Assembly (NCBI GenBank): GCA_023818895.1
Contig: JAMWCX010000001.1
Span: forward strand, 149,789-181,788
Direction: 5' to 3'
DNA from: Candidatus Omnitrophota bacterium
Lineage (GTDB): Bacteria > Omnitrophota > Gorgyraeia > 2-01-FULL-45-10
DNA length: 32,000 nucleotides
The notes below the pieces were generated by a model. That model was not told the DNA's origin, searched no databases, and saw only the letters and a list, made by a program, of their open reading frames with translations. A program made the position numbers and the translations under genes. The stretch's first letter is position 1. Each line of letters begins with the position of its first letter. Positions 1,191 through 21,917 of the stretch are shown here, piece by piece.

Positions 1191-1196
1191 GCGCAA

Positions 1197-1370
1197 AGCT
1201 TTACGTTAGCTTTAAACGGCAACTGGCTGGCGTGCGATATTCTGCGACGCCCCTATAGCTTTGCTACGGCCTTTAAGTTTTCTTCAGGCCGCAGTCCTGA
1301 GCAATGTCCTAAGTTACATCGACGGACATTGCCGAAGAACGCCCCGCCCTTTCGGGAGGTTTGCGATTAG
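1197..1370 (-). promoter_or_regulatory. GEMM-I (c-di-GMP-I)-like riboswitch leader, copy A, with a 76-nt insertion in the aptamer core
   Basis: The minus strand reads CTAATCGCAAACCTCCCGAAAGGGCGGGGC-[76 nt, 1265-1340]-GCAAAGCTATAGGGGCGTCGCAGAATATCGCACGCCAGCCAGTTGCCGTTTAAAGCTAACGTAAAGCT. It has the same modules as copies B-D, except for the insertion between the first hairpin and GCAAAGC. Confidence 0.6.
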
Positions 1371-1392
1371 TTACTTTCTTTTTTCTACAAAG

Positions 1393-1420
1393 AGTATACC
1401 TGATTCTGATAAATAGTCAA
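1393..1420 (-). promoter_or_regulatory. Sigma70-like promoter for leader A (TTGACT-N16-TATACT)
   Basis: The minus strand reads TTGACT (1420-1415), a 16-nt spacer, then TATACT (1398-1393). It sits about 25 nt upstream of the aptamer. The same architecture occurs at the same relative position in all four copies. Confidence 0.55.
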
Positions 1421-1816: not shown

Positions 1817-1921
1817 ATCGATATCTGTAACTTTTATTACTTATTACGCCCTTCTATTCCGCACCCTCCTATATCCCATTGCGATGATCGCTCCTACGAG
1901 CCCCACGACCGTCGCCGGCTC
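1795..1921. repeat. 127-nt perfect repeat, partner of 1-127
   Basis: Identical to 1-127. It covers the last about 26 codons (PEPATVVGLVGAIIAMGYRRVRNRRA), the stop codon and the 3' flank. Confidence 0.9.
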
Positions 1922-2932
1922 AGGGACGCCGCCTTCCGGCCCATACATGATCACGGGGCCAAAACCCTTAGATCCATCAAAACTGATGCGTGACCAGCTT
2001 GTGCCGTCATACTTCGAAACCAGGCCATAAGACCACGATCCGCTTCCTACTCCGGATGCATATACGTTGCCCGCATCATCGGCTGTCAAGCTGTTGATCC
2101 ATAAATAAAGGCTGTTGTCGAAACCTGTCTCCACCCAGCTTGTGCCGCCAAGATATTTGAAAACGTACTCAGTCCCGTAACCGCTTCCCGCTGCAAATAG
2201 ATCACCGTCGCTGTCCATGGCAAGGCCCATGATGACCCATGTATGAGGGCTATTATTGTATATGGACGTCCATGCGGTTCCTCCGTCGTATTTACTGATC
2301 TTCCCGTAGCTTCTCGAAGTATCTATACCATACACATACAAAGTATTAGTAGCTTGCGCGACCCACAGGTTAGAGTCGGAATACCCGCTCACACCCATAT
2401 CTGTCCAGCTCGTCCCGCCGTTCCACACGCGAACGCCATAGTTCTGATTGCCGCCCGCATAAAGGTTGCCGTTGTAGACCGCAAGGCCTGTTATAACCTC
2501 AGGCGAATTGAACCCGATATAATCCCAATTCGTTCCGCCCGTATATTTATAGACACCGGCGTAGTTATATCCGCCTGCATAAAGCGTTCCGTTTCCGTAC
2601 GCGAGGGTATTTATGTTGGTAACGCTGGTAAGGCCCAGAGATGTCCACGCCGTTCCGTCATATTTATAGACGCCGCCTCCTCCGAGGCCGGCAACGTAAA
2701 GATTGCCCGAATCATCCTTTACTATAGAACGGACCTCGCTTATCGCAGTCAGGCGAGGATCGGTCGGCGTCCAGTTAGATCCATCATACACATATATTTC
2801 ATTTGTGGCCCCCATATATAGTTGTTCGACATGGTCGGCGTAGATTTCCTGTGTTACAACGATAGAAAGCACCAACACCAGGAAAGTCGGTATAGTTATG
2901 CTCAGCAATTTCTTTAAGATTTGCGGCTTCAT
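1844..2932 (-). CDS. PEP-CTERM-anchored beta-propeller-type repeat protein
   Basis: 362 aa with an N-terminal hydrophobic signal/anchor (LLSITIPTFLVLVLSIVV). It has about 6-7 degenerate repeats of the type LYAGG...GVYKYDG(T)xW(T). The C-terminus is PEGGVPEPATVVGLVGAIIAMGYRRVRNRRA. Confidence 0.8.
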   Translation of the reverse strand: MKPQILKKLLSITIPTFLVLVLSIVVTQEIYADHVEQLYMGATNEIYVYDGSNWTPTDPRLTAISEVRSIVKDDSGNLYVAGLGGGGVYKYDGTAWTSLGLTSVTNINTLAYGNGTLYAGGYNYAGVYKYTGGTNWDYIGFNSPEVITGLAVYNGNLYAGGNQNYGVRVWNGGTSWTDMGVSGYSDSNLWVAQATNTLYVYGIDTSRSYGKISKYDGGTAWTSIYNNSPHTWVIMGLAMDSDGDLFAAGSGYGTEYVFKYLGGTSWVETGFDNSLYLWINSLTADDAGNVYASGVGSGSWSYGLVSKYDGTSWSRISFDGSKGFGPVIMYGPEGGVPEPATVVGLVGAIIAMGYRRVRNRRA

Positions 2933-2992: not shown

Positions 2993-4071
2993 TTATTTTT
3001 TTCTCCTCAAAGAACGCTTTATTCCAAACAGCGCCAAAGCGCTGAATAAGCCGATTACAGAAGCAGGCTCGGGGACACCGCCTTCCGGTTCTCCCTCCAA
3101 GCCGCTTCCCAGCTTGATGTAATACTTGCCACCTTAGGTCCAGGAATCTCCGATGTTGTAGCCGGTGTCTCCGGGAAGGTTGCCGGAGAGGTAGCGCCAG
3201 GTGATGCCGCCTATCTCCACTGAGCCCGTCTGAGCCGCGTAAAGGTCCGCGAGGGCACCGATGGCGTCTGTGTCATATACGTCCTGGCTGAAACCGAGGG
3301 TGTCCGCCTATCAGGCCTTCGTTGTAGAGGTGCGTTATCTGGGCGGAGGTCAAGGCGCTGCTCCAAACGGATACCTCATCAATCGAGTCGTCCCATGACC
3401 ATCTGCCGCCGGCATTATTGCTTCCTATTTCAAACGGATCCGTTCCCCTGATATCCTGGTTATTCAAAGTATTAGAATTTATTACTGTGCTTCTCTCCGT
3501 ACCATCTATGTATATCTTCAAACCGGTTGGACTGGAGGGATAATTCACGCCATCGTAAGTGCCCATAATGAAGTGCCAGTTTAAATCATCAAGAGAAGTG
3601 TCCGTGGTGATCTCCCTGAGCACGTATTGTCCGTATTGGCCTGTGTAAAGCATAAATACTACAGTTTCATTGTAATAATACATTTCATATCCTCTCAAAT
3701 AATACTTTCCAAGCAGCGCCCTTTCTCCTGTGGTAGCCGGGTTTGTGGTCTTAAACCACCCCCCCTATGCTGAAGGCATTATTGTAATTGAATGTCAGAT
3801 TGGATTTATTACCGACCTGAATATCGCTGTTGGTGCCGTTAAAGGCATAAGCGGTTCCTACTTTACCAGATGTGGTCAAAGTCGCATCGACCGTCAGGCT
3901 GTTGCTATCCTTCGAATCTCCCGTAGGACCGAGAGGATTTGCGGAGTCGAATTGCCAATAACTCACAAGGGAAGAATCTTCGTACACGCTTGCGCCAAAC
4001 CCTGTCCCTTCGCCCAGCACAAGGAGCACTATCGTTATTCCGATAATCAGTGACGCGCGTAGAGGTCTCAT
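2993..4071 (-). pseudogene. Decayed LamG/PEP-CTERM paralog (two frameshifts and one nonsense codon)
   Basis: Three ORF fragments in different frames (3751-4071, 3273-3698, 2993-about 3300) are collinear with the intact paralog at 18295-19359. There is a frameshift at a G7 run (plus-strand C7 at 3759-3765). An 11-nt deletion relative to the paralog lies at about 3303/3304. An in-frame TAA at 3134-3136 replaces the Tyr of SWTYNGRYYIKLGSG. The PEP-CTERM tail (VPEPASVIGLFSALALFGIKRSLRRKK) is still readable. Confidence 0.8.
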
Positions 4072-7000
4072 TTTAGCATTCTCGTTCTCCTGATCCTCCT
4101 CCACCCTACTATAATAAAAGCTCCCATAATCCCCACAACCGTCGCCGGCTCAGGGATTTCGCCGCCCGTCCCATAATTAAGAAATACATCCGTTCCACTC
4201 TTGGACATGCTCCATCCGGTAGCTGGTTGCCCTCCGCTAAACTGCAGCGTGAAATCATTCCAAGTCGGGATGCTGCCGGCGCTTATCACTATAAAGCTTG
4301 ACCCAATCTGGGGTAAGAAATTATCAAGATAACTGATCTCGAGGATAGCGCCGGGGTTGACGGAGAGCATGCCCGTTACATTTATCCAGTCCCATCCGGG
4401 ATCGGCGCCTTTTCCACCTATGATATCGGAATTTATCTCCCAGAGATAGATGCTGTTCTCATCGAAGGTAAGATTGGTAAATGTCTGTGTTCCAGGAGAA
4501 TCGCCCGGCGAAAGAATACCGCCAGCCGGAATCGTTACCGCAGTATCTAATTCTCCGACACCTTTCAACATACCCCCCATCATAGTGAATGAGGGCCCTG
4601 AGAACGTCCCTGCTAGATCAAAAGTCCCGCCATCCATGATAAAATCCCCTGTGCCGGAGATGTCCGTGGCGTGGAGTATACCACCGTTCATATCAAAAGT
4701 GCCATTGTCACCAATTACCATCTCCCCCACCGTCAATATCTTCTGATCCTCGAGCGTATATGAGGCCGTTTCAGTGCTCGTTCCGATCTTTAACGAAGCA
4801 AACTCAAGATCGCTTTGCGTATTTAGCGCGTAGTCTGTTCCGCGTATGTCGATCGTGCCGTTGGAACCATCAAGGGTGTTCGCATAGAGAGTGCCTCCTA
4901 ATATTCTGTAGGTTCCGCCTGCGCCTATTATCATCGTAACGATAGGGTTATCTTCGGTGCCGACCTGCGCATCGGCGCTCTGTACAAATGTTCCTGTGCC
5001 GCCACTTCCGATATTGATAGTATTGGCGGTAAGCGACCCGTATACACGAAAACTACCAACCGCGGAATCTCCAATATAGAGCGTAGCCAAATCGATATTA
5101 GAGCCGCTTCCGCTAAGGAGCAGGCCGCCATTAATTGAGATACTGCCACCGGAGATACTGCCGTCAGATATTGATAATACGCCGCCGTTAAGGTCGTAGT
5201 TACTGTTCAGATTCATGACGCCGTTCGGCAGTGAGACACTATAGTTATTCTGTATTACGTCTCTATTCACATTTATATAATTAGCGGCGATGTTGCCAGG
5301 AACCGTGAAAGAACAGGATCCGTAGCTTAAGGTAAGCGTATCGAGGTACGCATTATCAAAAGTTAAGGCAATGCCGCTAGTATCGTTTAGCGTACCCTGT
5401 CGCGTGGAAGATGTATTGATAGTGCCAGCGGCAAGCCAACTGCCAGAAATCGCCAATTCGACGCCGCTGCCGATTGTGATGGTATTGGCGCTTACGCCAT
5501 TGTACAGGGTAAGTGGGCTATTAACATTCAGAGTGTCAACCTTCATCGTGTGTCCTAAAGAAAGAGATCCTCCGTTATATGTATATGTTCCTTGGTTATC
5601 CCCAAAAGGATTTATGCCGCCACCTATACTGACCGAGTGACCGGACTGAATGACTTCGCTACCGATGCCTATTGCCATATTACCCGTGCTTATATCGCAC
5701 GGTACCTCTAAAGTGAGGTTATCGCCGATGGTAAAATTGGCCATATCGCTTATGCGGCCATTTGGTACGCTGATACTGCCACCATTGTAATAGAAGTTGC
5801 TGCCGGAGCTGCCTACAATGCCATTTTGCCCTGATACTGTCAAATCACCGCTCTGGAGATCGTAGTAACCTGCGTTCAGAGTCATATCACCTTCGACTGT
5901 GACGGTATCGTTTTGCGTAAAAGCCCCCTCTATGTACAAATAGGTGGCGTTGATAGACTGATCCGTTTTTTGGTCAAAATATACTCCTGAGCCGATATTA
6001 AATGTGCCGACATCGATGGTGGCGGCGTTCACGCTGGCCGAATTACCTGTAATAGCGAAAGTCCCGCTTCCGCTTATACTGCCCGTGCTCAATGCGCCGG
6101 CGTATAAGGTATAGGTCGAGCCTGACGCTATGCCCAGGGTGTTTTCTATCGTCACATCGTCCTGCTGGGTAAAGCTGCTGACAGTAATTCCATTGCCGAT
6201 GCTCATATTACCAGCCGTGATGGTTTGACCTGAATTTTGTGTAAAACTCACACCCTCGCTGCTTTCGCCCCAGCCAATATTAAGGTTATCAACATCCATA
6301 GTGGTCCACGTGCCAGACATTGTGCCTCCGTCAATATTTAGCGTTCCCGTACCGGGTCCGTTTCCGATTGAGTCGTTTACGGTAAGCACTCCGCCTTGTA
6401 AAGTATATATACCCTCGTAATTTTCCGCCATTCCGATATTGAGCTTATTTATCGTGTTGCTGCCGCCATACTGGATGAACCTCCCATAGGCGCCGAGGCC
6501 TATGTTCTCCGTATCGCCGCTTATGGTTATGCCGGGGCCTATCGCGAGCTCACCGTCATTGATATTACCGACATTCAGCGTTGTGCCGCTAATGGAACCT
6601 CCGGCGATTGTGATATAGGGCGTTGTAGTGTTGACGTTAAATGTGCTTGTGCCCGAACCGCTCGTAACATTTCTCCCGACATATAGAGTGCCTCCGTTGT
6701 AATCATATGTTCCGGATGAGCCTTCATTGACGCCCATGGCGAGGTCGCCGGATACAGTCAGTATTCCCGCCGACTGGGAAATTGTCCCTGTGCCTGAATT
6801 GCCGATGGTCAGGCCGCCGGTTGTTATGCTGATAGTCCCGTCGTAATTAAACTGGCCAGTGTAGCCGGCGCCATCGCCTACGGATAATGAGGATAACTCA
6901 AGCGACGAGCTAAAGGGTATGGTATAGGATCCTGTAGTATCGATGACAAGCCCTCCATAGAGATTAACAGAGGGAGACGCTATTGTAATGCTGGCTCCGG

Positions 7001-7433
7001 ATCCCTGCAGCCGAAGCTCTCCAAAAATATCGAGTCCTTGCGATGAGCAATAAACCTGCGAATTTTTGTTTAAAACGAGATTGTAAGCAGTGCACGACCC
7101 CCACCCATAGCTTGAAAATGCCCCCAATCCATAATTATCTGCGATAGTAATGGTAGTGCCGTTATCTGCGTAAAACTCCCACGGGTATGCCCAGTCTCTA
7201 ATTATAACCGAGGCACTAAACACGGCCATATCATGATAATCATCATAGGGAATTCCATAATCCCAATTGTTAGGATTATCGTAATAAGGGTCTTCGTATG
7301 CATAAAAATGATGCACGCAATGTTCATCATCTCCCCACGCGGGCGAAGAAGCGACACAGGCTATAATCGCGCATACCACAAGTCTCGCCATTAAATTATC
7401 TAGATGCACCTTTTGACTAATAAACCTTTTCAT
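4068..7433 (-). CDS. Large (1121 aa) PEP-CTERM surface protein with Gly/Thr/Asn-rich parallel beta-helix (autotransporter-passenger-like) repeats
   Basis: It has a signal peptide (ARLVVCAIIACVASSPAWG). About 900 aa are irregular G-x-(L/I)-x-(I/V) repeats (e.g. GGLTIGNSGTGTISQSAGILTVSGDL, GGVLTVNDSIGNGPGTGTLNIDGGT). The C-terminus is EIPEPATVVGIMGAFIIVGWRRIRRTRMLK. The ATG lies 4 nt after the stop of the upstream gene, and its stop overlaps the next start (ATGA at 4068-4071). Confidence 0.85.
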   Translation of the reverse strand: MKRFISQKVHLDNLMARLVVCAIIACVASSPAWGDDEHCVHHFYAYEDPYYDNPNNWDYGIPYDDYHDMAVFSASVIIRDWAYPWEFYADNGTTITIADNYGLGAFSSYGWGSCTAYNLVLNKNSQVYCSSQGLDIFGELRLQGSGASITIASPSVNLYGGLVIDTTGSYTIPFSSSLELSSLSVGDGAGYTGQFNYDGTISITTGGLTIGNSGTGTISQSAGILTVSGDLAMGVNEGSSGTYDYNGGTLYVGRNVTSGSGTSTFNVNTTTPYITIAGGSISGTTLNVGNINDGELAIGPGITISGDTENIGLGAYGRFIQYGGSNTINKLNIGMAENYEGIYTLQGGVLTVNDSIGNGPGTGTLNIDGGTMSGTWTTMDVDNLNIGWGESSEGVSFTQNSGQTITAGNMSIGNGITVSSFTQQDDVTIENTLGIASGSTYTLYAGALSTGSISGSGTFAITGNSASVNAATIDVGTFNIGSGVYFDQKTDQSINATYLYIEGAFTQNDTVTVEGDMTLNAGYYDLQSGDLTVSGQNGIVGSSGSNFYYNGGSISVPNGRISDMANFTIGDNLTLEVPCDISTGNMAIGIGSEVIQSGHSVSIGGGINPFGDNQGTYTYNGGSLSLGHTMKVDTLNVNSPLTLYNGVSANTITIGSGVELAISGSWLAAGTINTSSTRQGTLNDTSGIALTFDNAYLDTLTLSYGSCSFTVPGNIAANYINVNRDVIQNNYSVSLPNGVMNLNSNYDLNGGVLSISDGSISGGSISINGGLLLSGSGSNIDLATLYIGDSAVGSFRVYGSLTANTINIGSGGTGTFVQSADAQVGTEDNPIVTMIIGAGGTYRILGGTLYANTLDGSNGTIDIRGTDYALNTQSDLEFASLKIGTSTETASYTLEDQKILTVGEMVIGDNGTFDMNGGILHATDISGTGDFIMDGGTFDLAGTFSGPSFTMMGGMLKGVGELDTAVTIPAGGILSPGDSPGTQTFTNLTFDENSIYLWEINSDIIGGKGADPGWDWINVTGMLSVNPGAILEISYLDNFLPQIGSSFIVISAGSIPTWNDFTLQFSGGQPATGWSMSKSGTDVFLNYGTGGEIPEPATVVGIMGAFIIVGWRRIRRTRMLK

Positions 7434-7437: not shown

Positions 7438-8616
7438 TCACCATTTGTTATTTATCGCGCTTCTCCTTATCCATCCGCGCCGTTTGCCAAAAAATATCAT
7501 GGCCGTAATAGCCATTCCAAAGACCGTCGCCGGATCGGGGGCGCCTTTTTCACCTAATCCGCCTCCCAGATAAATATACCGCTGGCCTGTTGACATGTTT
7601 ATAAAGATATCACCAGGGTTGTGACCTGTCCAGATAGGGTCATCATGGGGTATATACTCCCAAGTAACATCGTCTATAGTTACTTCACCTTCCTGTGCCA
7701 GATAAAGATCGGATAACTGTTTTAATTCGCTGCTACTATACCCCAGATTAAAAAGTGTATTCATACCTATAAGGAGATTTTCATACTTCTCAACGCCGAG
7801 GTCGTAGATCATCTTTATCTCGTTTGAATCAAGCGCGCGATTCCACACGGCAGTATCGTCCATATAGGTGCCCGGGGAAAGAGGGTAATCCTCCGTACTT
7901 CCCGGCTCATAGTACCACCTAACGCCGCCCAAGAGGAACGGAACCCCGGTGGCGCTTAACGACCACTCGCCTATTACCGTATTGGAAACGGCGGTGGGAT
8001 TGCCATTCACGTATATGGATGCCACCTCGTCATAATGATTTACCTGGGATACAATATTCCACGTTATGGCTACATGCGACCATTTGGGTTCTTGTCCATA
8101 AACGGACATCGGTACCTGGACTGAGTTATTCCAATAATAGCTATTATTATCGCCAACAAATGGATACAAAACCGAGTAACCGGAATATGAGCTGTTTTGC
8201 ATAAAAAGGGCGGTCGCCCCAAGCCCGCCGGGGCCATCAAAGCTATTAACATCAGCGTAACCGGCCAGACCTACTCCATCTGACTCCGTCGGGATTTTCA
8301 ACCATACAGAGAAGGTGCCTGCGGTAGGCAGGACGGGCATTTCCTGGCTTACACCATTATAGGGCATTACCGCATTGCCGAATTTTCCCACACCCCACGA
8401 GGTATTGCCGGTATTATTAAAAGTCACGTTAGTATGCCCCGTTGAATCGGCGGCGGTATCGCCGCTTGTTTCATCGAACTTCCAGTAATAAAGCAGTGAA
8501 GTTTCGTAAGAGGCAAAAATAGGCGGGGCGACGCCCGCAATCACGATACATATGATTATGCCTATAAATATTTTCGTCCTCATCGCCCTCACCCCTCTCT
8601 CGAGTTTTGTAATCAT
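7438..8616 (-). CDS. Secreted LamG-like lectin-fold protein with a degenerate PEP-CTERM-like tail (PDP instead of PEP)
   Basis: 392 aa containing YWKFDETSGDTAADSTGH, DDTAVWNRALDSNEIKMIYDLG and the shared pre-tail module (LKQLSDLYLAQEGEVTIDDVTWEYI...). The tail is GAPDPATVFGMAITAMIFFGKRRGWIRRSAINNKW. An alternative start MRTKIF at 8583 would give a cleaner signal peptide. Confidence 0.8.
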   Translation of the reverse strand: MITKLERGVRAMRTKIFIGIIICIVIAGVAPPIFASYETSLLYYWKFDETSGDTAADSTGHTNVTFNNTGNTSWGVGKFGNAVMPYNGVSQEMPVLPTAGTFSVWLKIPTESDGVGLAGYADVNSFDGPGGLGATALFMQNSSYSGYSVLYPFVGDNNSYYWNNSVQVPMSVYGQEPKWSHVAITWNIVSQVNHYDEVASIYVNGNPTAVSNTVIGEWSLSATGVPFLLGGVRWYYEPGSTEDYPLSPGTYMDDTAVWNRALDSNEIKMIYDLGVEKYENLLIGMNTLFNLGYSSSELKQLSDLYLAQEGEVTIDDVTWEYIPHDDPIWTGHNPGDIFINMSTGQRYIYLGGGLGEKGAPDPATVFGMAITAMIFFGKRRGWIRRSAINNKW

Positions 8617-8634
8617 TTTAGTTCCCTCTCAAAC

Positions 8635-8666
8635 AAAAATCCCGACCTCCTACTCGGAAATCGGGA
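8635..8666 (-). terminator. Intrinsic terminator forming the expression platform of leader copy B
   Basis: The minus strand reads TCCCGATTTCC-GAGT(A)-GGAGGTCGGGA followed by TTTTTG. It lies about 20 nt upstream of the start codon at 8616. Confidence 0.75.
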
Positions 8667-8727
8667 CGCGTAATCCTTGGCCAGAGGCCAAGGATGGCCG
8701 CACATTTCAAGAGAAATGTGCAAGCCG

Positions 8728-8829
8728 AGCTTTACGTTAGCTTTAAACGGCAACTGGCTGCCCTGACGATTTTTCCGTCGAGGACCCTATAGCTTTGCGT
8801 CCCACCCTTTCGGGAGGTTTGCGATTATA
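8728..8829 (-). promoter_or_regulatory. GEMM-I (c-di-GMP-I)-like riboswitch aptamer plus conserved 3' mini-hairpin, copy B
   Basis: The minus strand reads TATAATCGCAAACCTCCCGAAAGGGTGGGACGCAAAGCTATAGGGTCCTCGACGGAAAAATCGTCAGGGCAGCCAGTTGCCGTTTAAAGCTAACGTAAAGCT. The GCAAACC / GAAA tetraloop hairpin / GGGACGCAAAGC / second hairpin / GUUGCCG order matches the Vc2-type consensus as I remember it. Two extra perfect hairpins (8672-8694 and 8700-8721) separate it from the terminator. Confidence 0.75.
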
Positions 8830-8850
8830 CCACTTCTGTTATCTAAAGCA

Positions 8851-8880
8851 AGTATACCTTATATATATATATAAATGCAA
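8851..8880 (-). promoter_or_regulatory. Sigma70-like promoter for leader B (TTGCAT-N18-TATACT) with a (TA)7 tract in the spacer
   Basis: The minus strand reads TTGCAT (8880-8875), an 18-nt spacer, then TATACT (8856-8851). The position relative to the aptamer matches the other copies. Confidence 0.5.
8860..8873. repeat. (TA)7 dinucleotide microsatellite inside the promoter spacer
   Basis: tatatatatatata was read directly at 8860-8873. The paralogous promoter of copy C has only (TA)4, at 19615-19622. Confidence 0.9.
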
Positions 8881-18231: not shown

Positions 18232-18261
18232 AAAAAAACACATCCAGAAAATAGGATGTGT
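18232..18261 (-). terminator. Intrinsic terminator of the riboswitch-C cassette gene
   Basis: The minus strand reads ACACATCC-TATTTTCT-GGATGTGT followed by TTTTTTT. It starts about 35 nt after the stop of 18295-19359. Confidence 0.8.
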
Positions 18262-18294
18262 TGTTTAATATTTATTTCCATTACACGCTACACA

Positions 18295-19359
18295 TTACAC
18301 CCTTCTGTTCCGATACCTCCTGTACCCTATCGCAATGACCGCTCCCAATATCCCCACGACCGTCGCCGGCTCTGGAACAGGCTCTCCTTCGAGCCCGCTT
18401 CCCAACTTGATATAGTACCTACCGTTATAAGTCCATGAATCTCCAATATCATAGCCGGTGTCTCCGGGAAGGTTGCCGGAGAGGTAGCGCCAGGTGATGC
18501 CGCCTATCTCCACTGAGCCCGTCTGGGCCGCGTAAAGGTCCGCCAGGGCCCCAATGGCGTCTGTGTCGTATACGTCCTGGCTGAAACCGAGGGTGTTTAT
18601 CACTCCTCCGCCTATCAGGCCTTCGTTATAGAGGTGCGTTATCTGCTCTGATGTTAAAGCGGTGTTCCATATGGCGACTTCGTCGATAAGGCCGTTAAAA
18701 TAAGGCTTACCTTCTTCGGAAGGATAAGCAATATTTACACCAAATGTCCAGTTGCCGCCGTTAGATTGTTTAAAATAGTACCAGTTTTCTCTTAGTTCGG
18801 TATCAGCGGCACCATTAACATAGACAGTCATGACGTTATTTTCATATACAACAGCATACTGGTACCATGTGTTCGCTTCCCAACAGTCTCTTTGGGTAAC
18901 TGCGCTTGTCCAGTAATACCAGTAAGAACGTAGTTGACCCGGCCAATTAGGATGGAAATGACCAAAAATTTGATATTTATTTCCGCTCCATCCGTTGTTA
19001 TTGGTAACAATAGTGATATCTTTTGTTACTGATCTGTCAATTCTTTCATTTGGCCTAAAGAAATACACTACCGTGAAACTCCTATCTGCAGGGCTATCGG
19101 ATAAGACGGGATAAGGAACATTAATATAGCCATTTGTCTCATCAAAGATATAGGCTCCTCCTACTTTTCCTTGGCTTGTCCACGTTGCACCATTTACCAC
19201 GCCATGGTTGGTTCCTATAGAGTCATCGGCGTTTTGATTATCAAAATTCCAGTAGGCTACAGCACCATCATATACCGTCGCCGCATACTCCTCTGCTGCG
19301 TCGAACGCCAAGCACGCGATTATTACTCCGATCATCAGTGACGCGCGTAGAGGTTTCAT
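18295..19359 (-). CDS. Secreted LamG/concanavalin-A-like lectin-fold protein with PEP-CTERM sorting signal
   Basis: 354 aa containing a signal peptide (MKPLRASLMIGVIIACLAF), YWNFDNQNADDSIGTNHG, IDEVAIWNTALTSEQITHLYNEGL and the shared pre-tail module. The C-terminus is PVPEPATVVGILGAVIAIGYRRYRNRRV. The Shine-Dalgarno sequence GAGGTGG precedes the ATG. Confidence 0.85.
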   Translation of the reverse strand: MKPLRASLMIGVIIACLAFDAAEEYAATVYDGAVAYWNFDNQNADDSIGTNHGVVNGATWTSQGKVGGAYIFDETNGYINVPYPVLSDSPADRSFTVVYFFRPNERIDRSVTKDITIVTNNNGWSGNKYQIFGHFHPNWPGQLRSYWYYWTSAVTQRDCWEANTWYQYAVVYENNVMTVYVNGAADTELRENWYYFKQSNGGNWTFGVNIAYPSEEGKPYFNGLIDEVAIWNTALTSEQITHLYNEGLIGGGVINTLGFSQDVYDTDAIGALADLYAAQTGSVEIGGITWRYLSGNLPGDTGYDIGDSWTYNGRYYIKLGSGLEGEPVPEPATVVGILGAVIAIGYRRYRNRRV

Positions 19360-19427
19360 TGTCCCACCTCTTGCTTATCCTTCTTCGCTCTTCAATGCGC
19401 TTACTGTGATAGAGCTTCGAAGGACTA

Positions 19428-19477
19428 TTTTTTAGGCATAGCCTAAAAAAATGTCCCAACCTCCGGAACGATTGGGA
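19428..19477 (-). terminator. Tandem hairpins forming the expression platform of leader copy C
   Basis: The minus strand reads TCCCAATC-GTTCCGGA-GGTTGGGA, then CA and a T7 run. The T7 run is also the 5' arm of a second perfect hairpin, TTTTTTAGGC-TAT-GCCTAAAAAA. The first stem covaries with copies A, B and D (CCCGA/TCGGG becomes CCCAA/TTGGG). Confidence 0.7.
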
Positions 19478-19483
19478 TCGCAA

Positions 19484-19584
19484 AGCGTTACGTTCGCTCT
19501 AACGGCAACTGGCTGCCCTGACGATTTTTCCGTCAAGGACCCTATAGCTTTGCGTCCCACCCTTTCGGGAGGTTTGCGATTATA
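19484..19584 (-). promoter_or_regulatory. GEMM-I (c-di-GMP-I)-like riboswitch aptamer plus 3' mini-hairpin, copy C
   Basis: The minus strand reads TATAATCGCAAACCTCCCGAAAGGGTGGGACGCAAAGCTATAGGGTCCTTGACGGAAAAATCGTCAGGGCAGCCAGTTGCCGTTAGAGCGAACGTAACGCT. The aptamer is nearly identical to copy B. The mini-hairpin stem is AGCG/CGCT instead of AGCT/AGCT. Confidence 0.75.
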
Positions 19585-19605
19585 TCACTTTTCTCATCCA
19601 AATTA

Positions 19606-19634
19606 AGTTTACCTTATATATATGTTATATGGAA
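19606..19634 (-). promoter_or_regulatory. Sigma70-like promoter for leader C (TTCCAT-N17-TAAACT)
   Basis: The minus strand reads TTCCAT (19634-19629), a 17-nt spacer containing (TA)4, then TAAACT (19611-19606). Its position is homologous to the promoters of the other copies. Confidence 0.4.
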
Positions 19635-19664: not shown

Positions 19665-19719
19665 TTGACAACCGTGAATTTCATGTTAACATTAGGTATG
19701 TAGGTTAACATATGTTAAA
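19665..19719 (+). promoter_or_regulatory. Promoter/operator region of the HTH-Doc module
   Basis: TTGACA lies at 19665-19670 with a TAACAT-like -10 element 16-17 nt downstream. There are three GTTAA(C/A) half-sites (19685-19690, 19704-19709, 19714-19719). They are arranged as the palindromes ATGTTAACAT and TTAACATATGTTAA, and the second spans the start codon at 19712. Confidence 0.5.
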
Positions 19720-19999
19720 AGTCATATATAAGGTTTATATGGATGAGAAGAATAAGTATGTAAGCATCCCCGAACTTGCCAAGATACTGGGCCTGAGCAG
19801 GATAGCTGTTTTTAAAAAGGTCAAAAAGGGCGTCATTAAGGCGGCCAAGATAGGCAGGAACTACGCTATTCCCAGGTCTTATGTCGACAGCATACTGGGC
19901 AAGACTCTTGCCGTCAGCAGTAAGAAAGAGATCGCTGCCGCCGTAAAGAAGACAGTCAAGGAATACGGGCAGACGCTGAAACTTTTAGGCAGGGAATGA
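19712..19999 (+). CDS. Excisionase-type helix-turn-helix DNA-binding protein, putative antitoxin
   Basis: 95 aa. YVSIPELAKILGLSRIAVFKKVKKGVIKAAKIGRNYAIPRSYVDSIL matches the HTH_17/excisionase pattern. Its stop overlaps the Doc start (ATGA at 19996-19999). Confidence 0.7.
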   Translation: MLKVIYKVYMDEKNKYVSIPELAKILGLSRIAVFKKVKKGVIKAAKIGRNYAIPRSYVDSILGKTLAVSSKKEIAAAVKKTVKEYGQTLKLLGRE

Positions 20000-20418
20000 T
20001 GCAAAGGATCACCGTTAAGGAGGTCGAGTACCTGGCGTTCGTTCTCGCAGGGGAGATAATGTCGTTCAACGAGCCTATCCCCGATTTCAAGACGAGATTT
20101 CCCAATATACTGGAAAGCTGCATAGCCGCGCCTTTCCAGGCCTTCGAAGAAAAGTCCTTCTACCCGGGCCTCATCGACAAGGCGGCGATCCTCTTCTATC
20201 TCATGATCAAGAACCATCCCTTCCAGAACGGCAACAAGCGCATAGCCATGACGACGCTTTTCGTCTTCCTGCACAAGAATAAGAAATGGGTAAGGGTCGA
20301 CGCGCAGGAGCTGTATAATTTCACGATGTGGATAGCGCAGAGCCCGGCCAAGTGTAAAGATGAAACCCTCGCGGCGATCAGGAAATTTCTTGCCGAGCAC
20401 GTGACGGATCTCGGATAG
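19996..20418 (+). CDS. doc: Doc (death-on-curing) / Fic-family toxin
   Basis: 140 aa containing the Doc signature HxFx(N/D)GNKR as NHPFQNGNKRIAMTTLFVFL. It is translationally coupled to the upstream HTH gene. Confidence 0.85.
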   Translation: MMQRITVKEVEYLAFVLAGEIMSFNEPIPDFKTRFPNILESCIAAPFQAFEEKSFYPGLIDKAAILFYLMIKNHPFQNGNKRIAMTTLFVFLHKNKKWVRVDAQELYNFTMWIAQSPAKCKDETLAAIRKFLAEHVTDLG

Positions 20419-20423: not shown

Positions 20424-20457
20424 AAAAAAAACGCGGCAGGATATTACATCCTCCGCG
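20424..20457 (-). terminator. Terminator between the convergent doc and PEP-CTERM genes (strong on the minus strand)
   Basis: The minus strand reads CGCGGAGGAT-GTAAT-ATCCTGCCGCG (10 bp with one bulge) followed by TTTTTTTT. On the plus strand the same hairpin is followed by the weaker CTCTTGTT. Confidence 0.8.
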
Positions 20458-20482
20458 CCTCTTGTTCGCGTTTAATTACACA

Positions 20483-21736
20483 TTACACCCTTCTGTTCCG
20501 ATACCTCCTGTACCCTATCGCAATGACCGCTACCAATATTCCCACAACCGTCGCCGGCTCGGGGACAGGAGGAGGATCTCCTGCGAGTCCAGGATTCCTT
20601 ATTTCGATATAGTATTTATTTGTCGCGGCGTCATAGAAAGCATGTCCAGGGCTATAAGGCCCACCCGGCAAATTTTCTAAATAGTGCCATGTAATGCCAT
20701 CGCTTGTTTTTACAGAAGCTTCAGGGTCTGCGCTTCTGTATAGAGCGGTTAATGCCTCTAATTCTTCTTCGGTATATTCAAAATGGAGAGCGGATGTTAC
20801 CGCATCGTTGATATAATTATAGAATAGATCAAGATAGTAGATTTCTCTGTCAACTCCGTCTGAAGCATCCCATGCCAAAGCACCATTATAGAAGGAGAGG
20901 GAATAGATCGCATTAGTGCTATTGATTAATTCATTGGTGGTCGATCCTTCCCACAAAAATATCTTATTGGTGCTCGCTTCATTTATCCAGGCAACCATTC
21001 TGTCATAAACAACAGGGCTAAAATCTCTACTGCTATTATTAGTAAGCCGGCGTGTGGTTGTGCCGTCCCAGTAATATATTTCGTTCTCGCCTCCCGAGAC
21101 CCTACTCGCCCACGCTATTGTGCCATTATATAAGGATGGCTCCTCCTCAATAGCGCTGTTGTTAGTTATTCTTTGACTGGAAGTTCCGTTCCAATAATAA
21201 ATCTCGGAACCGTACCCACTACCACTAATATATGCTATTTCGTTATTTCCGAGTGAGGGAGAACTGTCATAGACGCTATTGTTTGTTATCTGCTGTGTCG
21301 TAGATTTGTTCCAATAATAGATCTCATAAGCCCCTGATCCGCCGTGATATGCTATATTGCCATTATATGTCGAAGGGCGGGCTTGGTATATAGAGTCGTT
21401 CGTGAGTTGATGCGTTGAGCCGTCCCAGTAATAAATTTCCAAATCCGTTCCATCGTTGTGTTCCCACGCAATTACTCCACCATGAAAGGAAACTTTCTGG
21501 TCTGACAACGAATCATTCGTTATCCTCTGTGTTGTTGAACCATCCCAATAATATACTTCATTGTTTGCTATCCACGCGATCTCGCCATTATAAACTTTGG
21601 GATCCTGGTCATTATATGAATTATTCGTTATCTGCAAAGGAGTCCATCCAGCATGAGAATTTGCTGCTACGAGCGACAATAGCAGCATTATCGCAAAAAT
21701 AATTAGCCCCTTTAATGTGGCGTGTCTTCTTCCCAT
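20483..21736 (-). CDS. PEP-CTERM-anchored beta-propeller-type protein with about 40-aa EIYYWDG repeats
   Basis: 417 aa with a signal peptide (LIIFAIMLLLSLVAANSHA). There are six clear repeats plus one degenerate repeat of the form ...P.(v/l)y.g.IAW.....e(I/V)YYW(D/N)GsttqriTNnS.... These are followed by the shared pre-tail module (LEALTALYRSADPEASVKTSDGITWHYLENLPGG...YYIEI) and PVPEPATVVGILVAVIAIGYRRYRNRRV. Confidence 0.85.
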   Translation of the reverse strand: MGRRHATLKGLIIFAIMLLLSLVAANSHAGWTPLQITNNSYNDQDPKVYNGEIAWIANNEVYYWDGSTTQRITNDSLSDQKVSFHGGVIAWEHNDGTDLEIYYWDGSTHQLTNDSIYQARPSTYNGNIAYHGGSGAYEIYYWNKSTTQQITNNSVYDSSPSLGNNEIAYISGSGYGSEIYYWNGTSSQRITNNSAIEEEPSLYNGTIAWASRVSGGENEIYYWDGTTTRRLTNNSSRDFSPVVYDRMVAWINEASTNKIFLWEGSTTNELINSTNAIYSLSFYNGALAWDASDGVDREIYYLDLFYNYINDAVTSALHFEYTEEELEALTALYRSADPEASVKTSDGITWHYLENLPGGPYSPGHAFYDAATNKYYIEIRNPGLAGDPPPVPEPATVVGILVAVIAIGYRRYRNRRV

Positions 21737-21752
21737 TTTTCCTACCTCAACT

Positions 21753-21784
21753 AAAAATCCCGACCTCCTACTTGGAAATCGGGA
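21753..21784 (-). terminator. Intrinsic terminator forming the expression platform of leader copy D
   Basis: The minus strand reads TCCCGATTTCC-AAGT(A)-GGAGGTCGGGA followed by TTTTTAG. It ends 17 nt before the start codon at 21736. Confidence 0.75.
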
Positions 21785-21804
21785 CGCGTTCTCTCGACGA
21801 GAAC

Positions 21805-21900
21805 GAGCTTTACGTTAGCTCTAAACAGCAACTGGCTGGCGTGCTTACGCGACGCCCCTATAGCTTTGCGGCCCGTCCTTTCGGACGGTGTGCGATTATA
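21805..21900 (-). promoter_or_regulatory. GEMM-I (c-di-GMP-I)-like riboswitch aptamer plus 3' mini-hairpin, copy D (most compact)
   Basis: The minus strand reads TATAATCGCACACCGTCCGAAAGGACGGGCCGCAAAGCTATAGGGGCGTCGCGTAAGCACGCCAGCCAGTTGCTGTTTAGAGCTAACGTAAAGCTC. The first hairpin is fully Watson-Crick paired (CCGTCC/GGACGG) through changes compensatory to copy B. The second hairpin is capped by GTAA. Confidence 0.75.
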
Positions 21901-21917
21901 TTCATTTATCTACTTTA

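What the first reader, a model, noticed from the sequence alone, without database searches (positions are those of the whole stretch)
18232..19634. Self-contained cassette: promoter, riboswitch, one PEP-CTERM gene, terminator
The units at 18232-19634 and 20424-21945 are complete monocistronic modules. Each has a sigma70-like promoter, a GEMM-I-like leader with its own terminator, one secreted PEP-CTERM protein and a strong intrinsic terminator (ACACATCC...GGATGTGT-U7 in one, CGCGGAGGAT...ATCCUGCCGCG-U8 in the other). The payload differs between the two (a LamG lectin fold versus an EIYYWDG propeller). The regulatory front end, the pre-tail module and the sorting tail are shared. This looks like a plug-in architecture in which different extracellular binding domains are placed under one second-messenger-controlled display system. 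An HTH-Doc toxin-antitoxin pair sits between the two cassettes.
Basis: partly seen in the sequence, partly recalled or inferred. Interest (0 to 1): 0.7.

Follow-up and report, generated by a model that had tools for sequence, protein, structure and literature searches.

The report
Riboswitch-led PEP-CTERM surface-protein gene cassettes
An uncultured Omnitrophota bacterium puts a family of secreted, cell-surface-sorted binding proteins behind copies of one cyclic-di-GMP-type riboswitch with its own terminator; the arrangement is real and tidy but is built from known parts, and the same pairing has already been noted in another bacterium.

Summary
The window holds four leaders of one type, all on the minus strand. 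Three are full c-di-GMP-I (RF01051) matches: 19501-19588, 21824-21904 and 8746-8833, at 54-64 bits against a cutoff of 35. The fourth (about 1215-1368) is split by a 79-nt insertion. Each leader has a conserved -10 box, the aptamer, a short conserved hairpin and a 12-13 bp intrinsic terminator. All four precede Sec-signal/PEP-CTERM genes, seven in the window, one of them a pseudogene. Payloads are LamG, a 7-bladed beta-propeller and a 1121-aa repetitive protein. A ~70-aa pre-tail domain with no Pfam family is shared. It defines a family of at least 226 clusters, always C-terminal, on varied payloads. Identity between cassettes is mosaic: 78-100% at leaders or tails and about 35-40% in payloads, which indicates recombination at the shared ends.

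Aptamer and terminator folds are compatible, and aptamer strands can pair with the terminator 5' arm. My best guess is therefore an OFF switch, held with moderate confidence. The ligand-contacting G20 is C in all four copies. No exosortase could be examined. Relatives carry the proteins, mostly without the riboswitch. A similar riboswitch/PEP-CTERM cluster is published for Methylophaga. Verdict: new member of a known kind, of moderate interest.

The parts
18237..18262 (-). Intrinsic terminator of cassette 1 (ACACATCC...GGATGTGT followed by a U run)
   Evidence: 9-bp stem, 8-nt loop, T run; sequence
18295..19359 (-). CDS, 354 aa: signal peptide, LamG (Laminin_G_3), about 70-aa pre-tail module, PEP-CTERM tail (VPEPATVVG...RRYRNRRV)
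   Evidence: PF13385 E=1.9e-18; TIGR02595 17.8 bits vs 16
19447..19477 (-). Leader terminator of cassette 1 (UCCCAAUCG...GGUUGGGA plus U7). Its 5' flank GCUUUGCGAUCCC is complementary to the aptamer core GGGACGCAAAGC.
19483..19500 (-). Conserved linker hairpin (AGAGCG AACGUAA CGCUU) between aptamer and terminator
   Evidence: compensatory U-A/G-C change
19501..19588 (-). c-di-GMP-I (GEMM-I) aptamer of cassette 1. GAAA tetraloop in P1a; C instead of G at position 20.
   Evidence: 63.9 bits, E=1.7e-10; for position 20
19606..19634 (-). Promoter-like -35 TTCCAT, 17-nt spacer, -10 TAAACT
   Evidence: The -10 is conserved in 4 leaders. The generic scanner did not call this promoter.
20424..20460 (-). 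Intrinsic terminator of cassette 2 (CGCGGAGGAT...ATCCUGCCGCG plus U8; 10 bp with one bulged G)
   Evidence: sequence; not listed by the scanner, which allows no bulge
20483..21736 (-). CDS, 417 aa: signal peptide, 7-bladed beta-propeller (EIYYWDG repeats), pre-tail module, PEP-CTERM tail
   Evidence: (TIGR02595 17.5 bits vs 16; TIGR04275 repeat hit)
21752..21785 (-). Leader terminator of cassette 2 (GUCCCGAUUUCC AAGUA GGAGGUCGGGAU plus U5)
   Evidence: 12 bp
21805..21822 (-). Linker hairpin of cassette 2
21824..21904 (-). c-di-GMP-I aptamer of cassette 2. P1a and distal P1b differ from cassette 1 by compensatory changes.
   Evidence: 54.2 bits
21918..21945 (-). Promoter-like -35 TTGCAT, 16-nt spacer, -10 TATACT
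8634..8856 (-). Third leader: -10 at 8851-8856, aptamer 8746-8833, linker hairpin 8727-8744, two extra hairpins, terminator stem 8639-8667 plus a U run
   Evidence: (62.9 bits)
7438..8616 (-). CDS, 392 aa: LamG, pre-tail module and a degenerate tail (PDPATVFG...). First gene of the operon behind the third leader.
   Evidence: No PEP-CTERM HMM hit.
4068..7433 (-). CDS, 1121 aa: repetitive Gly/Thr/Ser-rich protein with a PEP-CTERM tail (IPEPATVVG...)
   Evidence: (TIGR02595 14.7 bits, just below 16)
2993..4071 (-). Pseudogene: LamG + pre-tail + PEP-CTERM, broken by a G-run frameshift, a 10-nt deletion and a TAA nonsense codon
   Evidence: 88% identical to 18380-18596
1844..2932 (-). CDS, 362 aa: repeat (propeller-like) protein with a PEP-CTERM tail. 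No pre-tail module and no leader of its own.
   Evidence: TIGR02595 21.0 bits vs 16
1156..1420 (-). Fourth leader: promoter TTGACT-16-TATACT (1393-1420), aptamer halves 1343-1368 and 1215-1263 split by a 79-nt two-hairpin insertion (1264-1342), linker hairpin 1196-1213, terminator stem 1161-1190 plus a U run
   Evidence: (29.5 bits, below the gathering score)
50..1129 (-). CDS, 359 aa: LamG + pre-tail + PEP-CTERM. Its last ~250 nt are 95-100% identical to cassette 1.
   Evidence: (TIGR02595 20.9 bits)
19712..20418 (+). Neighbour, not part of the cassettes: HTH_17/excisionase-type antitoxin candidate (19712-19999) overlapping by ATGA a Doc/Fic toxin (19996-20418, motif HPFQNGNKR)
   Evidence: TIGR01550 50.4 bits vs 38.65

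Best explanation
The window comes from a Candidatus Omnitrophota genome. It carries a paralogous set of transcription units built on one plan. 

The plan has four steps.
1. A sigma-70-like promoter (conserved -10 TAtACT) starts a 150-230-nt leader.
2. The leader folds into a GEMM-I/c-di-GMP-I aptamer, followed by a short conserved hairpin and a strong intrinsic terminator just before the ribosome-binding site. Control is therefore by premature transcription termination.
3. The mRNA encodes a Sec-exported protein. It has a variable binding domain (LamG lectin fold, 7-bladed beta-propeller or long repeat protein), a conserved ~70-aa pre-tail domain (one helix plus a small beta-sheet), and a PEP-CTERM tail (VPEP, a TM helix and an Arg cluster).
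4. That tail marks the protein for cleavage and surface or exopolysaccharide attachment by an exosortase encoded elsewhere.

The aptamer fold and the terminator do not overlap and can coexist. The only alternative pairing found for the terminator's 5' arm is with the aptamer's own P1a-3'/junction strand (GGGACGC[AAAGC]). The most likely logic is therefore an OFF switch. With ligand bound, aptamer + linker hairpin + terminator form and transcription stops. Without ligand, the aptamer strand pairs with the terminator arm and transcription reads through.

The cassettes are kept alike at their ends (leader, pre-tail, tail, 3' terminator) by recombination or gene conversion, while the payloads diverge.

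Shown: RNA family membership, terminators, protein domains, tails, mosaic identity and the taxonomic setting.
Inferred: the ligand, the polarity of the switch, exosortase processing and surface display.
For: RNA family:
- Three leaders score 54-64 bits against the gathering score of 35. The fourth scores 29.5 bits and carries a 79-nt insertion.
- Six predicted pairs in P1a, P1b and the linker hairpin show compensatory changes among 5 leaders.

Terminators and switch logic:
- Leader terminators have 12-13 bp stems plus U runs.
- When the aptamer is enforced, the terminator still forms in all three intact leaders.
- When the transcript is truncated, or the terminator 3' arm is blocked, the 5' arm pairs with aptamer GGGACGC(AAAGC) in L354 and L392, and with GGGGCGU in L417.
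- Duplex energy against shuffled aptamers: L354 -13.9 kcal/mol (17/500 shuffles as good); L392 -17.4 (41/500).
- The free MFE of L354 (-61.8) lacks the terminator. The aptamer + terminator state is -55.3.
- Off-switching c-di-GMP-I riboswitches are known, e.g. Vc2 (abstract of bioRxiv 10.1101/617340, seen).

Proteins:
- Pfam and NCBIfam hits.
- The propeller model and its Foldseek hits.
- The module family: 226 representative clusters at E<=1e-3, always with the module at the C-terminus. Tails are PEP (80) or PE[LMVIF]P (46). Payloads are diverse.

Recombination: mosaic identity.

Association:
- 4 of 4 leaders precede PEP-CTERM-type genes.
- An independent case exists in Omnitrophota MAG020, locus L129.

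Organism and reality of the sequence:
- An independent assembly matches window 20466-27217 at 99.985%.
Against: - Polarity is not settled. The antiterminator pairing is short (7-8 bp) and not better than shuffles in L417 (172/500), L129 (119/500) and L359 (365/500).
- In L417 and L392 the terminator state is 13-15 kcal/mol more stable than any read-through state even without ligand. Regulation there would have to be kinetic.
- The ligand-contacting G20 is C in all four leaders. In 99 other aptamers it was G in 84, A in 14 and C in at most 1. c-di-GMP binding is therefore assumed, not shown.
- No exosortase, GGDEF or EAL gene is in the window or in any fetched locus of this organism.
- The 392-aa protein's tail fails the PEP-CTERM models.
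- The same protein family in another Omnitrophota lineage (L002, L003, L137-L140) has no riboswitch. The coupling is therefore lineage-specific, not intrinsic to the module.
Confidence: 0.75

Rival explanations
1. Same parts, opposite polarity. The leaders are ON switches: the terminator forms by default, and c-di-GMP binding relieves it. High c-di-GMP (sessile or biofilm state) would then induce the PEP-CTERM surface proteins, as the 'display system' picture suggests.
For: - In L417 and L392 the terminator hairpin is the most stable state without ligand. This is what a default-off/ligand-on design needs.
- PEP-CTERM proteins are linked to exopolysaccharide and biofilm (Haft 2006, as cited in PMC12530212 and PMC7726332). 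c-di-GMP usually promotes such functions (established knowledge).
- In Methylophaga GP59, three of the four riboswitches next to PEP-CTERM/VPLPA-CTERM genes had higher transcript levels in biofilm.
Against: - No sequence was found that aptamer folding would free and that could then pair with either terminator arm.
- The aptamer and the terminator do not share nucleotides, so ligand-stabilised folding does not compete with the terminator.
- The only complementarity to the terminator 5' arm lies inside the aptamer, which gives OFF logic.
Confidence: 0.3
2. The aptamers are a specificity variant of GEMM-I. With C instead of G at position 20 they sense a different cyclic dinucleotide (for example 3'3'-cGAMP, as the A20 GEMM-Ib class does), or they bind c-di-GMP only weakly.
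For: - C20 is present in all four window leaders (alignments). In 99 other aptamers with the same core the position was G 84, A 14, C at most 1.
- G20 reads the Hoogsteen edge of one guanine of the ligand. A20 switches or broadens specificity to cGAMP (PMC6140456).
- My inference: C offers the same amino-donor/ring-N-acceptor pattern as A.
Against: - A47 and C92 and the rest of the core are canonical. The best Rfam family is c-di-GMP-I itself, not a variant family.
- The related leader in L129 has G20 in front of the same kind of gene.
- From memory of Smith et al. 2010 (paper not held): position-20 variants keep biologically useful c-di-GMP affinity.
- Identity of C20 across the four copies can be explained by gene conversion alone.
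Confidence: 0.1
3. The leaders are no longer ligand-responsive. They are inherited 5' UTR repeats that act as constitutive attenuators or stabilisers, carried along by duplication of the cassettes.
For: - The fourth leader is disrupted by a 79-nt insertion at the ligand-binding junction and falls below the Rfam threshold.
- C20 is present in all copies.
- One cassette gene is a pseudogene.
- Relatives express homologous genes without any riboswitch.
Against: - Compensatory base-pair changes between copies in P1a, distal P1b and the linker hairpin indicate selection for the fold.
- Three copies score far above the gathering score.
- The aptamer-hairpin-terminator plan recurs in a second species with a diverged sequence.
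Confidence: 0.07
4. The repeated cassettes are an assembly artefact, i.e. collapsed or chimeric joins at repeats in a metagenome-assembled genome.
For: - Shared ends of 90-250 nt at 92-100% identity are the kind of repeat that misleads assemblers.
- An independent assembly breaks exactly at the tail repeat.
- 10 of 11 related loci sit at contig ends.
Against: - The independent contig JAMWDH010000055.1 reproduces cassette 2 with its leader and 6.7 kb of flank at 99.985% identity.
- Every cassette has an intact, distinct payload ORF joined in frame to the module.
- The copies differ by compensatory RNA changes.
Confidence: 0.02

Closest known systems
Cluster of c-di-GMP riboswitches in front of PEP-CTERM / VPLPA-CTERM genes in Methylophaga nitratireducenticrescens GP59 (PeerJ 2025, PMC12530212)
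   Same: Several class-I c-di-GMP riboswitches lie within about 18 kb, each flanking a gene for a protein with a PEP-CTERM-type sorting tail, near exopolysaccharide genes. This is the same regulatory pairing and the same clustered, one-riboswitch-per-gene layout.
   Different: - The phylum differs (Gammaproteobacteria vs Omnitrophota).
- That paper only lists the adjacency and the transcript levels.
- It describes no shared pre-tail domain, no mosaic recombination and no expression-platform analysis.
- I could not read that genome here, so similarity at the sequence level is untested.
Characterised c-di-GMP-I (GEMM-I) riboswitches such as Vibrio cholerae Vc2 (tfoY)
   Same: - Same Rfam family, with P1a carrying a GNRA tetraloop and a P1b helix.
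- Conserved junction ...GACGCAAAGC..., and A47 and C92 present.
- Vc2 is reported to act as an off-switch (abstract).
   Different: - Position 20 is C, not G.
- The expression platform here is a separate linker hairpin plus an intrinsic terminator 30-90 nt downstream.
- The target genes are exosortase substrates, not a regulator.
GEMM-Ib 3'3'-cGAMP riboswitches of Geobacter (A at position 20)
   Same: Same scaffold, with a non-G nucleotide at the position that reads the Hoogsteen edge of one ligand base. They also control extracellular and surface functions.
   Different: The nucleotide here is C, not A. No binding data exist, and there is no evidence that the organism makes cGAMP.
PEP-CTERM/exosortase (EpsH/XrtA) protein-sorting system (Haft et al. 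2006)
   Same: N-terminal signal peptide, C-terminal VPEP motif + TM helix + Arg-rich cluster, and many paralogues per genome. The TIGR02595 model is met by four proteins.
   Different: - The exosortase was not seen.
- A conserved ~70-aa domain with no Pfam, NCBIfam or PDB match precedes the tail.
- In sister lineages this domain is followed by a PE[LMVIF]P-type tail instead.

Membership tests
c-di-GMP-I riboswitch (Rfam RF01051, GEMM-I) | Covariance-model score at or above the curated gathering score (35 bits) | tested here: met
   63.9, 62.9 and 54.2 bits for 19501-19588, 8746-8833 and 21824-21904. The fourth copy (1215-1281) scores only 29.5 bits, so it is not met for that copy.
c-di-GMP-I riboswitch (Rfam RF01051, GEMM-I) | Two-helix architecture (P1a with a GNRA tetraloop, P1b) supported by covariation | tested here: met
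   GAAA loop in P1a in all window copies. 6 of 21 predicted pairs show changes on both sides among 5 leaders. The sample is small.
c-di-GMP-I riboswitch (Rfam RF01051, GEMM-I) | Ligand-contacting nucleotides G20, A47, C92 (Vc2 numbering) | tested here: not met
   A47 and C92 are present. Position 20 is C in all four leaders (AAUC|GCAAACC). In 99 other aptamers it was G 84 / A 14 / C at most 1. The role of G20 is taken from PMC6140456. The mapping of numbering onto the Rfam columns is my own.
c-di-GMP-I riboswitch (Rfam RF01051, GEMM-I) | Binds c-di-GMP and changes expression in response | not testable with these tools
   Needs in-line probing or ITC, and transcription-termination assays.
c-di-GMP-I riboswitch (Rfam RF01051, GEMM-I) | Expression platform directly downstream in the 5' UTR of a gene | tested here: met
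   12-13-bp terminators with U runs lie 30-90 nt after each aptamer and 10-95 nt before the start codon.
PEP-CTERM exosortase substrates (TIGR02595 / PF07589) | C-terminal PEP motif + hydrophobic helix + basic cluster, scoring above the model cutoff (16 bits) | tested here: met
   354 aa 17.8; 417 aa 17.5; 362 aa 21.0; 359 aa 20.9. The 1121-aa protein scores 14.7, just below. The 392-aa protein (PDPATVFG) has no hit.
PEP-CTERM exosortase substrates (TIGR02595 / PF07589) | N-terminal signal peptide | tested here: inconclusive
   Judged by eye only: a basic n-region, a hydrophobic core and AxA-like sites (e.g. ...SHA|G...AHA|A) in all six intact proteins. No signal-peptide predictor was available.
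PEP-CTERM exosortase substrates (TIGR02595 / PF07589) | Multiple paralogues per genome | tested here: met
   Seven genes in 32 kb. At least 7 module-bearing loci in the related MAG CSMAG_1412.
PEP-CTERM exosortase substrates (TIGR02595 / PF07589) | An exosortase (EpsH/Xrt) encoded in the same genome | not testable with these tools
   None in the window or in fetched loci (Pfam lists; TM heuristic). The rest of the genome could not be retrieved.
Doc/Fic type II toxin-antitoxin pair (neighbour) | Doc-family toxin above the model cutoff, with the HxFx(D/N)GNKR motif | tested here: met
   TIGR01550 50.4 bits vs 38.65 and PF02661 E=2.9e-11. The motif HPFQNGNKR is in the translation.
Doc/Fic type II toxin-antitoxin pair (neighbour) | Small upstream antitoxin gene, translationally coupled | tested here: met
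   The 95-aa HTH_17/excisionase-type ORF ends in ATGA, overlapping the Doc start at 19996-19999. It is not a Phd-family antitoxin.
Beta-propeller payload (417-aa protein) | Propeller fold | tested here: met
   In the AF2 model the propeller region has pLDDT about 80-93. Foldseek hits to tricorn, TolB, trilobed-protease and designed 7-bladed propellers have probability 1.00.

The most novel reading that the evidence does not exclude
The four leaders are a natural C20 variant of the GEMM-I aptamer with altered cyclic-dinucleotide specificity, for example 3'3'-cGAMP or a mixed dinucleotide instead of c-di-GMP. Together with the recombining leader and tail ends, they would form a second-messenger-gated, payload-swapping surface-protein repertoire. 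An ultrasmall Omnitrophota cell might use it to change what it binds, such as hosts or particles.
Probability: 0.1. Interest if true: 0.7.

Novelty: new member of a known kind. Interest (0 to 1): 0.4.

Why it matters
Omnitrophota are uncultured, often ultrasmall bacteria, and their surface biology is almost unknown. Here a whole family of their exported binding proteins (lectin-like LamG, propellers and long repeat proteins) is wired to one cyclic-dinucleotide-type riboswitch. This gives a concrete, testable handle on when these cells change their surface.

Three pieces may be of wider use:
- a conserved ~70-aa domain that precedes PEP-CTERM-type tails in at least 226 protein clusters and has no family or structural match. 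It is a candidate recognition or spacer element for exosortase sorting.
- a natural C20 variant of a well-studied aptamer.
- clear mosaic evidence that leader and tail act as recombination handles for exchanging payloads.

None of this overturns current knowledge. The riboswitch class, the sorting signal and their adjacency are already described.

Tried and rejected
1. Genome-contig scan with a strict leader pattern: 0 hits. This organism's leader is not in the species-representative set.
2. Metagenome-contig scan with GCAAAGCTATAGGG...CAGCCAGTTGC: 120+ hits, but the pattern is common to c-di-GMP-I aptamers of gut Firmicutes and others. No downstream gene had a PEP-type tail.
3. Viral-contig scan with a lineage-specific leader pattern: 0 hits.
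A trimmed alignment worked, but 10 of the 11 loci were cut at the gene's 5' side, so their leaders could not be assessed.
5. Exact-protein look-up of the 354-aa protein: not on record.
6. Pre-tail module against Pfam at E<=10: only the PEP-CTERM motif. AF2 model of the module (pLDDT 67) against PDB with Foldseek: nothing below E=0.6.
7. Exosortase hunt: no Pfam exosortase in any annotated locus, and a multi-TM ORF heuristic found only transporters and NuoH.
8. The Smith 2009 and 2010 structure papers, which have the position-20 mutant data, are not held. 'G20C' in the literature search gave nothing useful.
9. Literature searches for Omnitrophota/Omnitrophica + PEP-CTERM/exosortase and for exosortase + riboswitch found nothing relevant.
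10. I considered and rejected SD-sequestration (translational) control. The GGAGG in the terminator 3' arm lies about 30 nt from the AUG, and a separate GAGG box sits at the proper distance.
11. I considered that the 79-nt insertion in the fourth aptamer is a mobile mini-element. It has no other copy in any held DNA.


Full report
**1. What is there**

Rfam (gathering thresholds, whole window) returns three c-di-GMP-I (RF01051) aptamers, all on the minus strand:
- 19501-19588: 63.9 bits, E=1.7e-10
- 21824-21904: 54.2 bits
- 8746-8833: 62.9 bits. This one lies outside the finding.

A permissive scan of 1-9000 adds a fourth, partial match at 1215-1281 (29.5 bits, below the gathering score of 35). 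Reading the sequence shows a complete leader of the same kind. Its aptamer is split between ...GGGGCG and CAAAGC... by a 79-nt insertion (1264-1342).

**2. Anatomy of a leader**

The leaders align and share the following elements:
- a -10 box TAtACT at 19606-19611, 21918-21923, 8851-8856 and 1393-1398
- a weak to good -35: TTCCAT, TTGCAT, TTGCAT and TTGACT, with 16-18-nt spacers
- the aptamer
- a conserved hairpin, (A/G)AGC(U/G) AACGUAA (A/C)GCU(C/U)
- an intrinsic terminator with a 12-13-bp stem and a U run: 19454-19477, 21757-21785, 8639-8667 and 1161-1190

The generic promoter scanner called only the fourth promoter (TTGACT-16-TATACT). The promoter claim for the other three rests on conservation.

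RNAalifold was run on the four window leaders plus one from another species. It recovers P1a, P1b and the linker hairpin, and 6 of 21 pairs show changes on both sides. For example, P1a is CCUCCC/GGGUGG in one copy and CCGUCC/GGACGG in another, and the distal P1b sequences are quite different. The RNAs are therefore under selection for their fold.

**3. The genes behind the leaders**

| Leader | Gene(s) | Content | Evidence |
|---|---|---|---|
| Cassette 1 | 18295-19359, 354 aa | LamG (PF13385, E=1.9e-18) + PEP-CTERM (TIGR02595 17.8 bits vs 16) | |
| Cassette 2 | 20483-21736, 417 aa | seven EIYYWDG repeats + PEP-CTERM (17.5 bits) | |
| Third leader, operon | 7438-8616, 392 aa | LamG with a degenerate PDPATVFG tail | |
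| | 4068-7433, 1121 aa | repeat protein, PEP-CTERM 14.7 bits | |
| | 2993-4071 | LamG/PEP-CTERM pseudogene (frameshift, 10-nt deletion, TAA nonsense) | |
| | 1844-2932, 362 aa | repeat protein, PEP-CTERM 21.0 bits | |
| Fourth leader | 50-1129, 359 aa | LamG + PEP-CTERM (20.9 bits) | |

For the 417-aa protein, the AF2 model has pLDDT about 80-93 over the repeat region. It matches tricorn, TolB, trilobed-protease and designed 7-bladed propellers at probability 1.00.

All six intact proteins start with signal-peptide-like sequences, judged by eye.

All four leaders in the window therefore precede PEP-CTERM-type genes. None precedes any of the roughly 25 other genes: trehalose synthesis, PFK, helicase, radical-SAM enzyme and hydrogenase/complex-I-like genes. 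The HTH_17/excisionase + Doc pair between the cassettes is confirmed.

**4. The shared protein module**

The last ~100 residues align across the paralogues...L(A/T)DLY...G..(I/V)TW.YL...LPGDTGY.IGDSW.Y.G.YYIKLGSGLEGEPVPEPATVVG...RR.R.RR.
- The stretch before the PEP motif has no Pfam or NCBIfam family.
- A profile of it, searched against 1.84 billion representative proteins, finds 226 clusters at E<=1e-3 and 91 at E<=1e-10. The match is almost always at the extreme C-terminus of proteins of 300-1900 aa.
- Of 100 full-length members, 54 carry Laminin_G_3 and 8 carry FG-GAP. Others carry discoidin, pentaxin, CBM5/12, collagen or PATR domains.
- AF2 on the module alone gives a moderate model: pLDDT 67 overall and about 80 for residues 20-80. 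It shows one helix and a five-stranded sheet, then the TM helix. Foldseek against PDB finds nothing.

The 'pre-tail module' is thus a real, uncharacterised domain attached to many binding-type payloads. This fits the 'plug-in' description at the level of the protein family.

**5. Mosaic cassettes**

Repeat finding and sliding-window identity of aligned cassettes show high identity at the ends only.

| Pair | Shared end | Identity there |
|---|---|---|
| 354 vs 392 | leader | 78-98% |
| 354 vs 359 | last ~250 nt | 95-100% |
| 354 vs 417 | last ~100 nt | 92-98% |
| 359 vs 362 | last ~130 nt, including the 3' terminator | 98-100% |

Payload regions are at about 30-45%, which is the level of unrelated sequence. 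Each cassette shares different ends with different partners, which is the signature of recombination or gene conversion at the conserved ends. The repeats also break assemblies. An independent contig (GCA_023818765.1, JAMWDH010000055.1) is 99.985% identical to window 20466-27217 and stops right after the stop codon (20483) of the 417-aa gene, in the tail/terminator repeat. In addition, 10 of 11 related genome loci lie at contig ends. The independent contig also argues against an assembly artefact.

**6. Organism and relatives**

Homologues of the module are named Candidatus Omnitrophica/Omnitrophota. The species-representative genome scan returns ten Omnitrophota MAG loci and one 'Planctomycetia' bin.

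Only one of those loci keeps the region upstream of its gene: L129, from Omnitrophota MAG020. It has the following layout:
- a c-di-GMP-I-clan match at 3178-3250, 44.4 bits. The best score is to the GGC variant model and is below that model's gathering score. Position 20 is the canonical G.
- a short hairpin and a terminator
- a 436-aa propeller + pre-tail gene, followed by a second paralogue

This is an independent second case of the coupling. By contrast, six loci from another Omnitrophota-like assembly pair (ERZ21831086 and ERZ21831104: L002, L003, L137-L140) carry propeller or LamG + pre-tail genes without any c-di-GMP-I match, even at E<=0.1-1. The coupling is therefore lineage-specific.

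**7. How the switch probably works**

The aptamer and the terminator do not overlap. With the aptamer base pairs enforced, all three intact leaders still fold the linker hairpin and the full terminator. The design is not the usual ON type, in which the terminator borrows an aptamer strand.

When the transcript is cut before the terminator's 3' arm, or that arm is kept unpaired, the 5' arm pairs with aptamer sequence:
- GGGACGCAAAGC with GCUUUGCG-A-UCCC in L354 (12-13 bp)
- GGGACGC with GCGUCCC in L392
- GGGGCGU with GCGUCCC in L417

Against dinucleotide shuffles of the aptamer, this complementarity is unusual for L354 (17/500) and L392 (41/500). It is not unusual for L417, L359 or L129. For L354 the unconstrained MFE (-61.8 kcal/mol) has no terminator, while the aptamer + terminator state is at -55.3. 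Ligand binding could therefore tip the balance toward termination. For L417 and L392 the terminator state is always the more stable, so any control there must be kinetic.

I conclude that control is by transcription termination. The most likely polarity is OFF, meaning that ligand causes termination. I put this at roughly 0.55, against 0.3 for ON. Both polarities are known in this class; Vc2 is reported as an off-switch (abstract).

**8. An unexpected nucleotide**

In the Rfam alignments the conserved unpaired G just before the GC/AAA of the junction is C in all four window leaders (AAUC|GCAAACC). This is model position 11, which I map to G20 of Vc2. In 99 distinct aptamers with the same core taken from the unspecific metagenome scan, the position is G in 84, A in 14 and C in at most 1.

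G20 reads the Hoogsteen edge of one guanine of c-di-GMP. A at this position defines the cGAMP-sensing GEMM-Ib class and makes Vc2 bispecific (PMC6140456). A47 and C92 are canonical here.

The effect of C20 on affinity or specificity cannot be decided in silico, and the mutant studies are not held. I therefore treat 'c-di-GMP' as the probable ligand, not a shown one.

**9. What could not be checked**

No exosortase, GGDEF, EAL or HD-GYP gene lies in the window or in other DNA of this organism, because only a 6.9-kb extra contig was reachable. A GGDEF gene sits near a module gene in a relative (L003).

**10. Comparison with what is known, and verdict**

The riboswitch class and the PEP-CTERM/exosortase signal are established. 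Their adjacency, in a cluster with one riboswitch per gene, is already reported for Methylophaga nitratireducenticrescens GP59. That genome has four c-di-GMP riboswitches within 18 kb, each next to a PEP-CTERM or VPLPA-CTERM gene (PMC12530212). Searches for Omnitrophota with PEP-CTERM or exosortase, and for exosortase with riboswitch, found nothing relevant.

This is therefore a new member of a known kind. Its features of some interest are:
- the phylum
- the uncharacterised pre-tail domain family
- the recombining ends
- the probable OFF polarity
- the C20 aptamers

Interest is 0.4. The most novel reading not excluded is a specificity-variant aptamer gating a payload-swapping surface repertoire (probability about 0.1).

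Noticed in passing
window 19639-19661, 21949-21971, 8885-8907 (minus strand): A conserved 23-nt box, GAAATAAAAAAGCCAGCTATTTC (imperfect palindrome GAAATA...TATTTC), lies about 5-28 nt upstream of the -35 in three of the four leaders and is absent from the fourth. It could be a transcription-factor site or an UP-like element carried with the cassette.
   Followed up: partly
window 2993-4071 (minus strand): A LamG + pre-tail + PEP-CTERM gene in the operon is a pseudogene with three independent lesions: a G-run frameshift near 3754-3763, a 10-nt deletion near 3300, and TAT->TAA near 3136. Its module is still 88% identical to that of cassette 1.
   Followed up: partly
window 1264-1342 (minus strand): A 79-nt insertion sits inside the ligand-binding junction of the fourth aptamer. 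It folds into two stable hairpins (-34.9 kcal/mol) and has no other copy in any held DNA. It is unclear whether it kills the aptamer or adds a helix to the junction.
   Followed up: partly
window 19571-19581, 21887-21897, 8816-8826, 1358-1368: Position 20 of the aptamer (G in 85% and A in 14% of 99 comparison aptamers) is C in all four copies. The related leader in L129 has G.
   Followed up: partly
window 1513-1730 (minus strand): A small ORF (about 72 aa, MRISVKVKPNSKAEV...) lies between the operon's terminator and the fourth leader. From memory it looks like a DUF167/YggU-type protein; it was not scanned.
   Followed up: no
window 10820-15745 (minus strand): A trehalose gene cluster: TreT-like glycosyltransferase, DUF5752, trehalose-phosphatase, and a 744-aa GT20 (OtsA-like) with an N-terminal extension.
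   Followed up: no
window 26985-31958 (minus strand): Genes for a membrane-bound [NiFe]-hydrogenase / complex-I-like module: HycI maturation protease, 4Fe-4S protein, and NuoH-, NuoD/NiFe large subunit-, NuoC-, NuoB- and NuoK-like proteins.
   Followed up: no
window 17825-18241 and 16906-17463 (minus strand): DUF5674 and DUF3786 proteins lie directly downstream of cassette 1. Their function is unknown and no link to the cassettes was seen.
   Followed up: no
L001 (JAMWDH010000055.1) and loci L126-L136: The independent assembly of the same organism ends exactly in the shared tail/terminator repeat. In related Omnitrophota MAGs, 10 of 11 module-bearing genes sit at contig ends, and one MAG (CSMAG_1412) has at least 7 such loci. 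This protein family is probably under-counted in MAGs.
   Followed up: partly
L137 4346-7078; L140 11229-15081 and 18683-19402: In the riboswitch-less Omnitrophota relatives, IS elements and transposases (rve, IS66, IS110, DDE_Tnp_1, Y1_Tnp) lie next to the module-bearing genes.
   Followed up: no
L138 8247-8444; window 19712-19999: There is a MamI (magnetosome) Pfam hit in a relative's contig. The window's HTH protein gives a sub-threshold MamR hit (27 bits vs 100). This may hint at a magnetotactic Omnitrophota relative, or may just be HTH similarity.
   Followed up: no
window 19385-19450 (minus strand): In cassette 1 only, the U run of the leader terminator can pair with a downstream A run (UUUUUUUAGGCUAUGCCUAAAAAA). 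This forms a second hairpin about 90 nt before the start codon. Its role is unknown.
   Followed up: no
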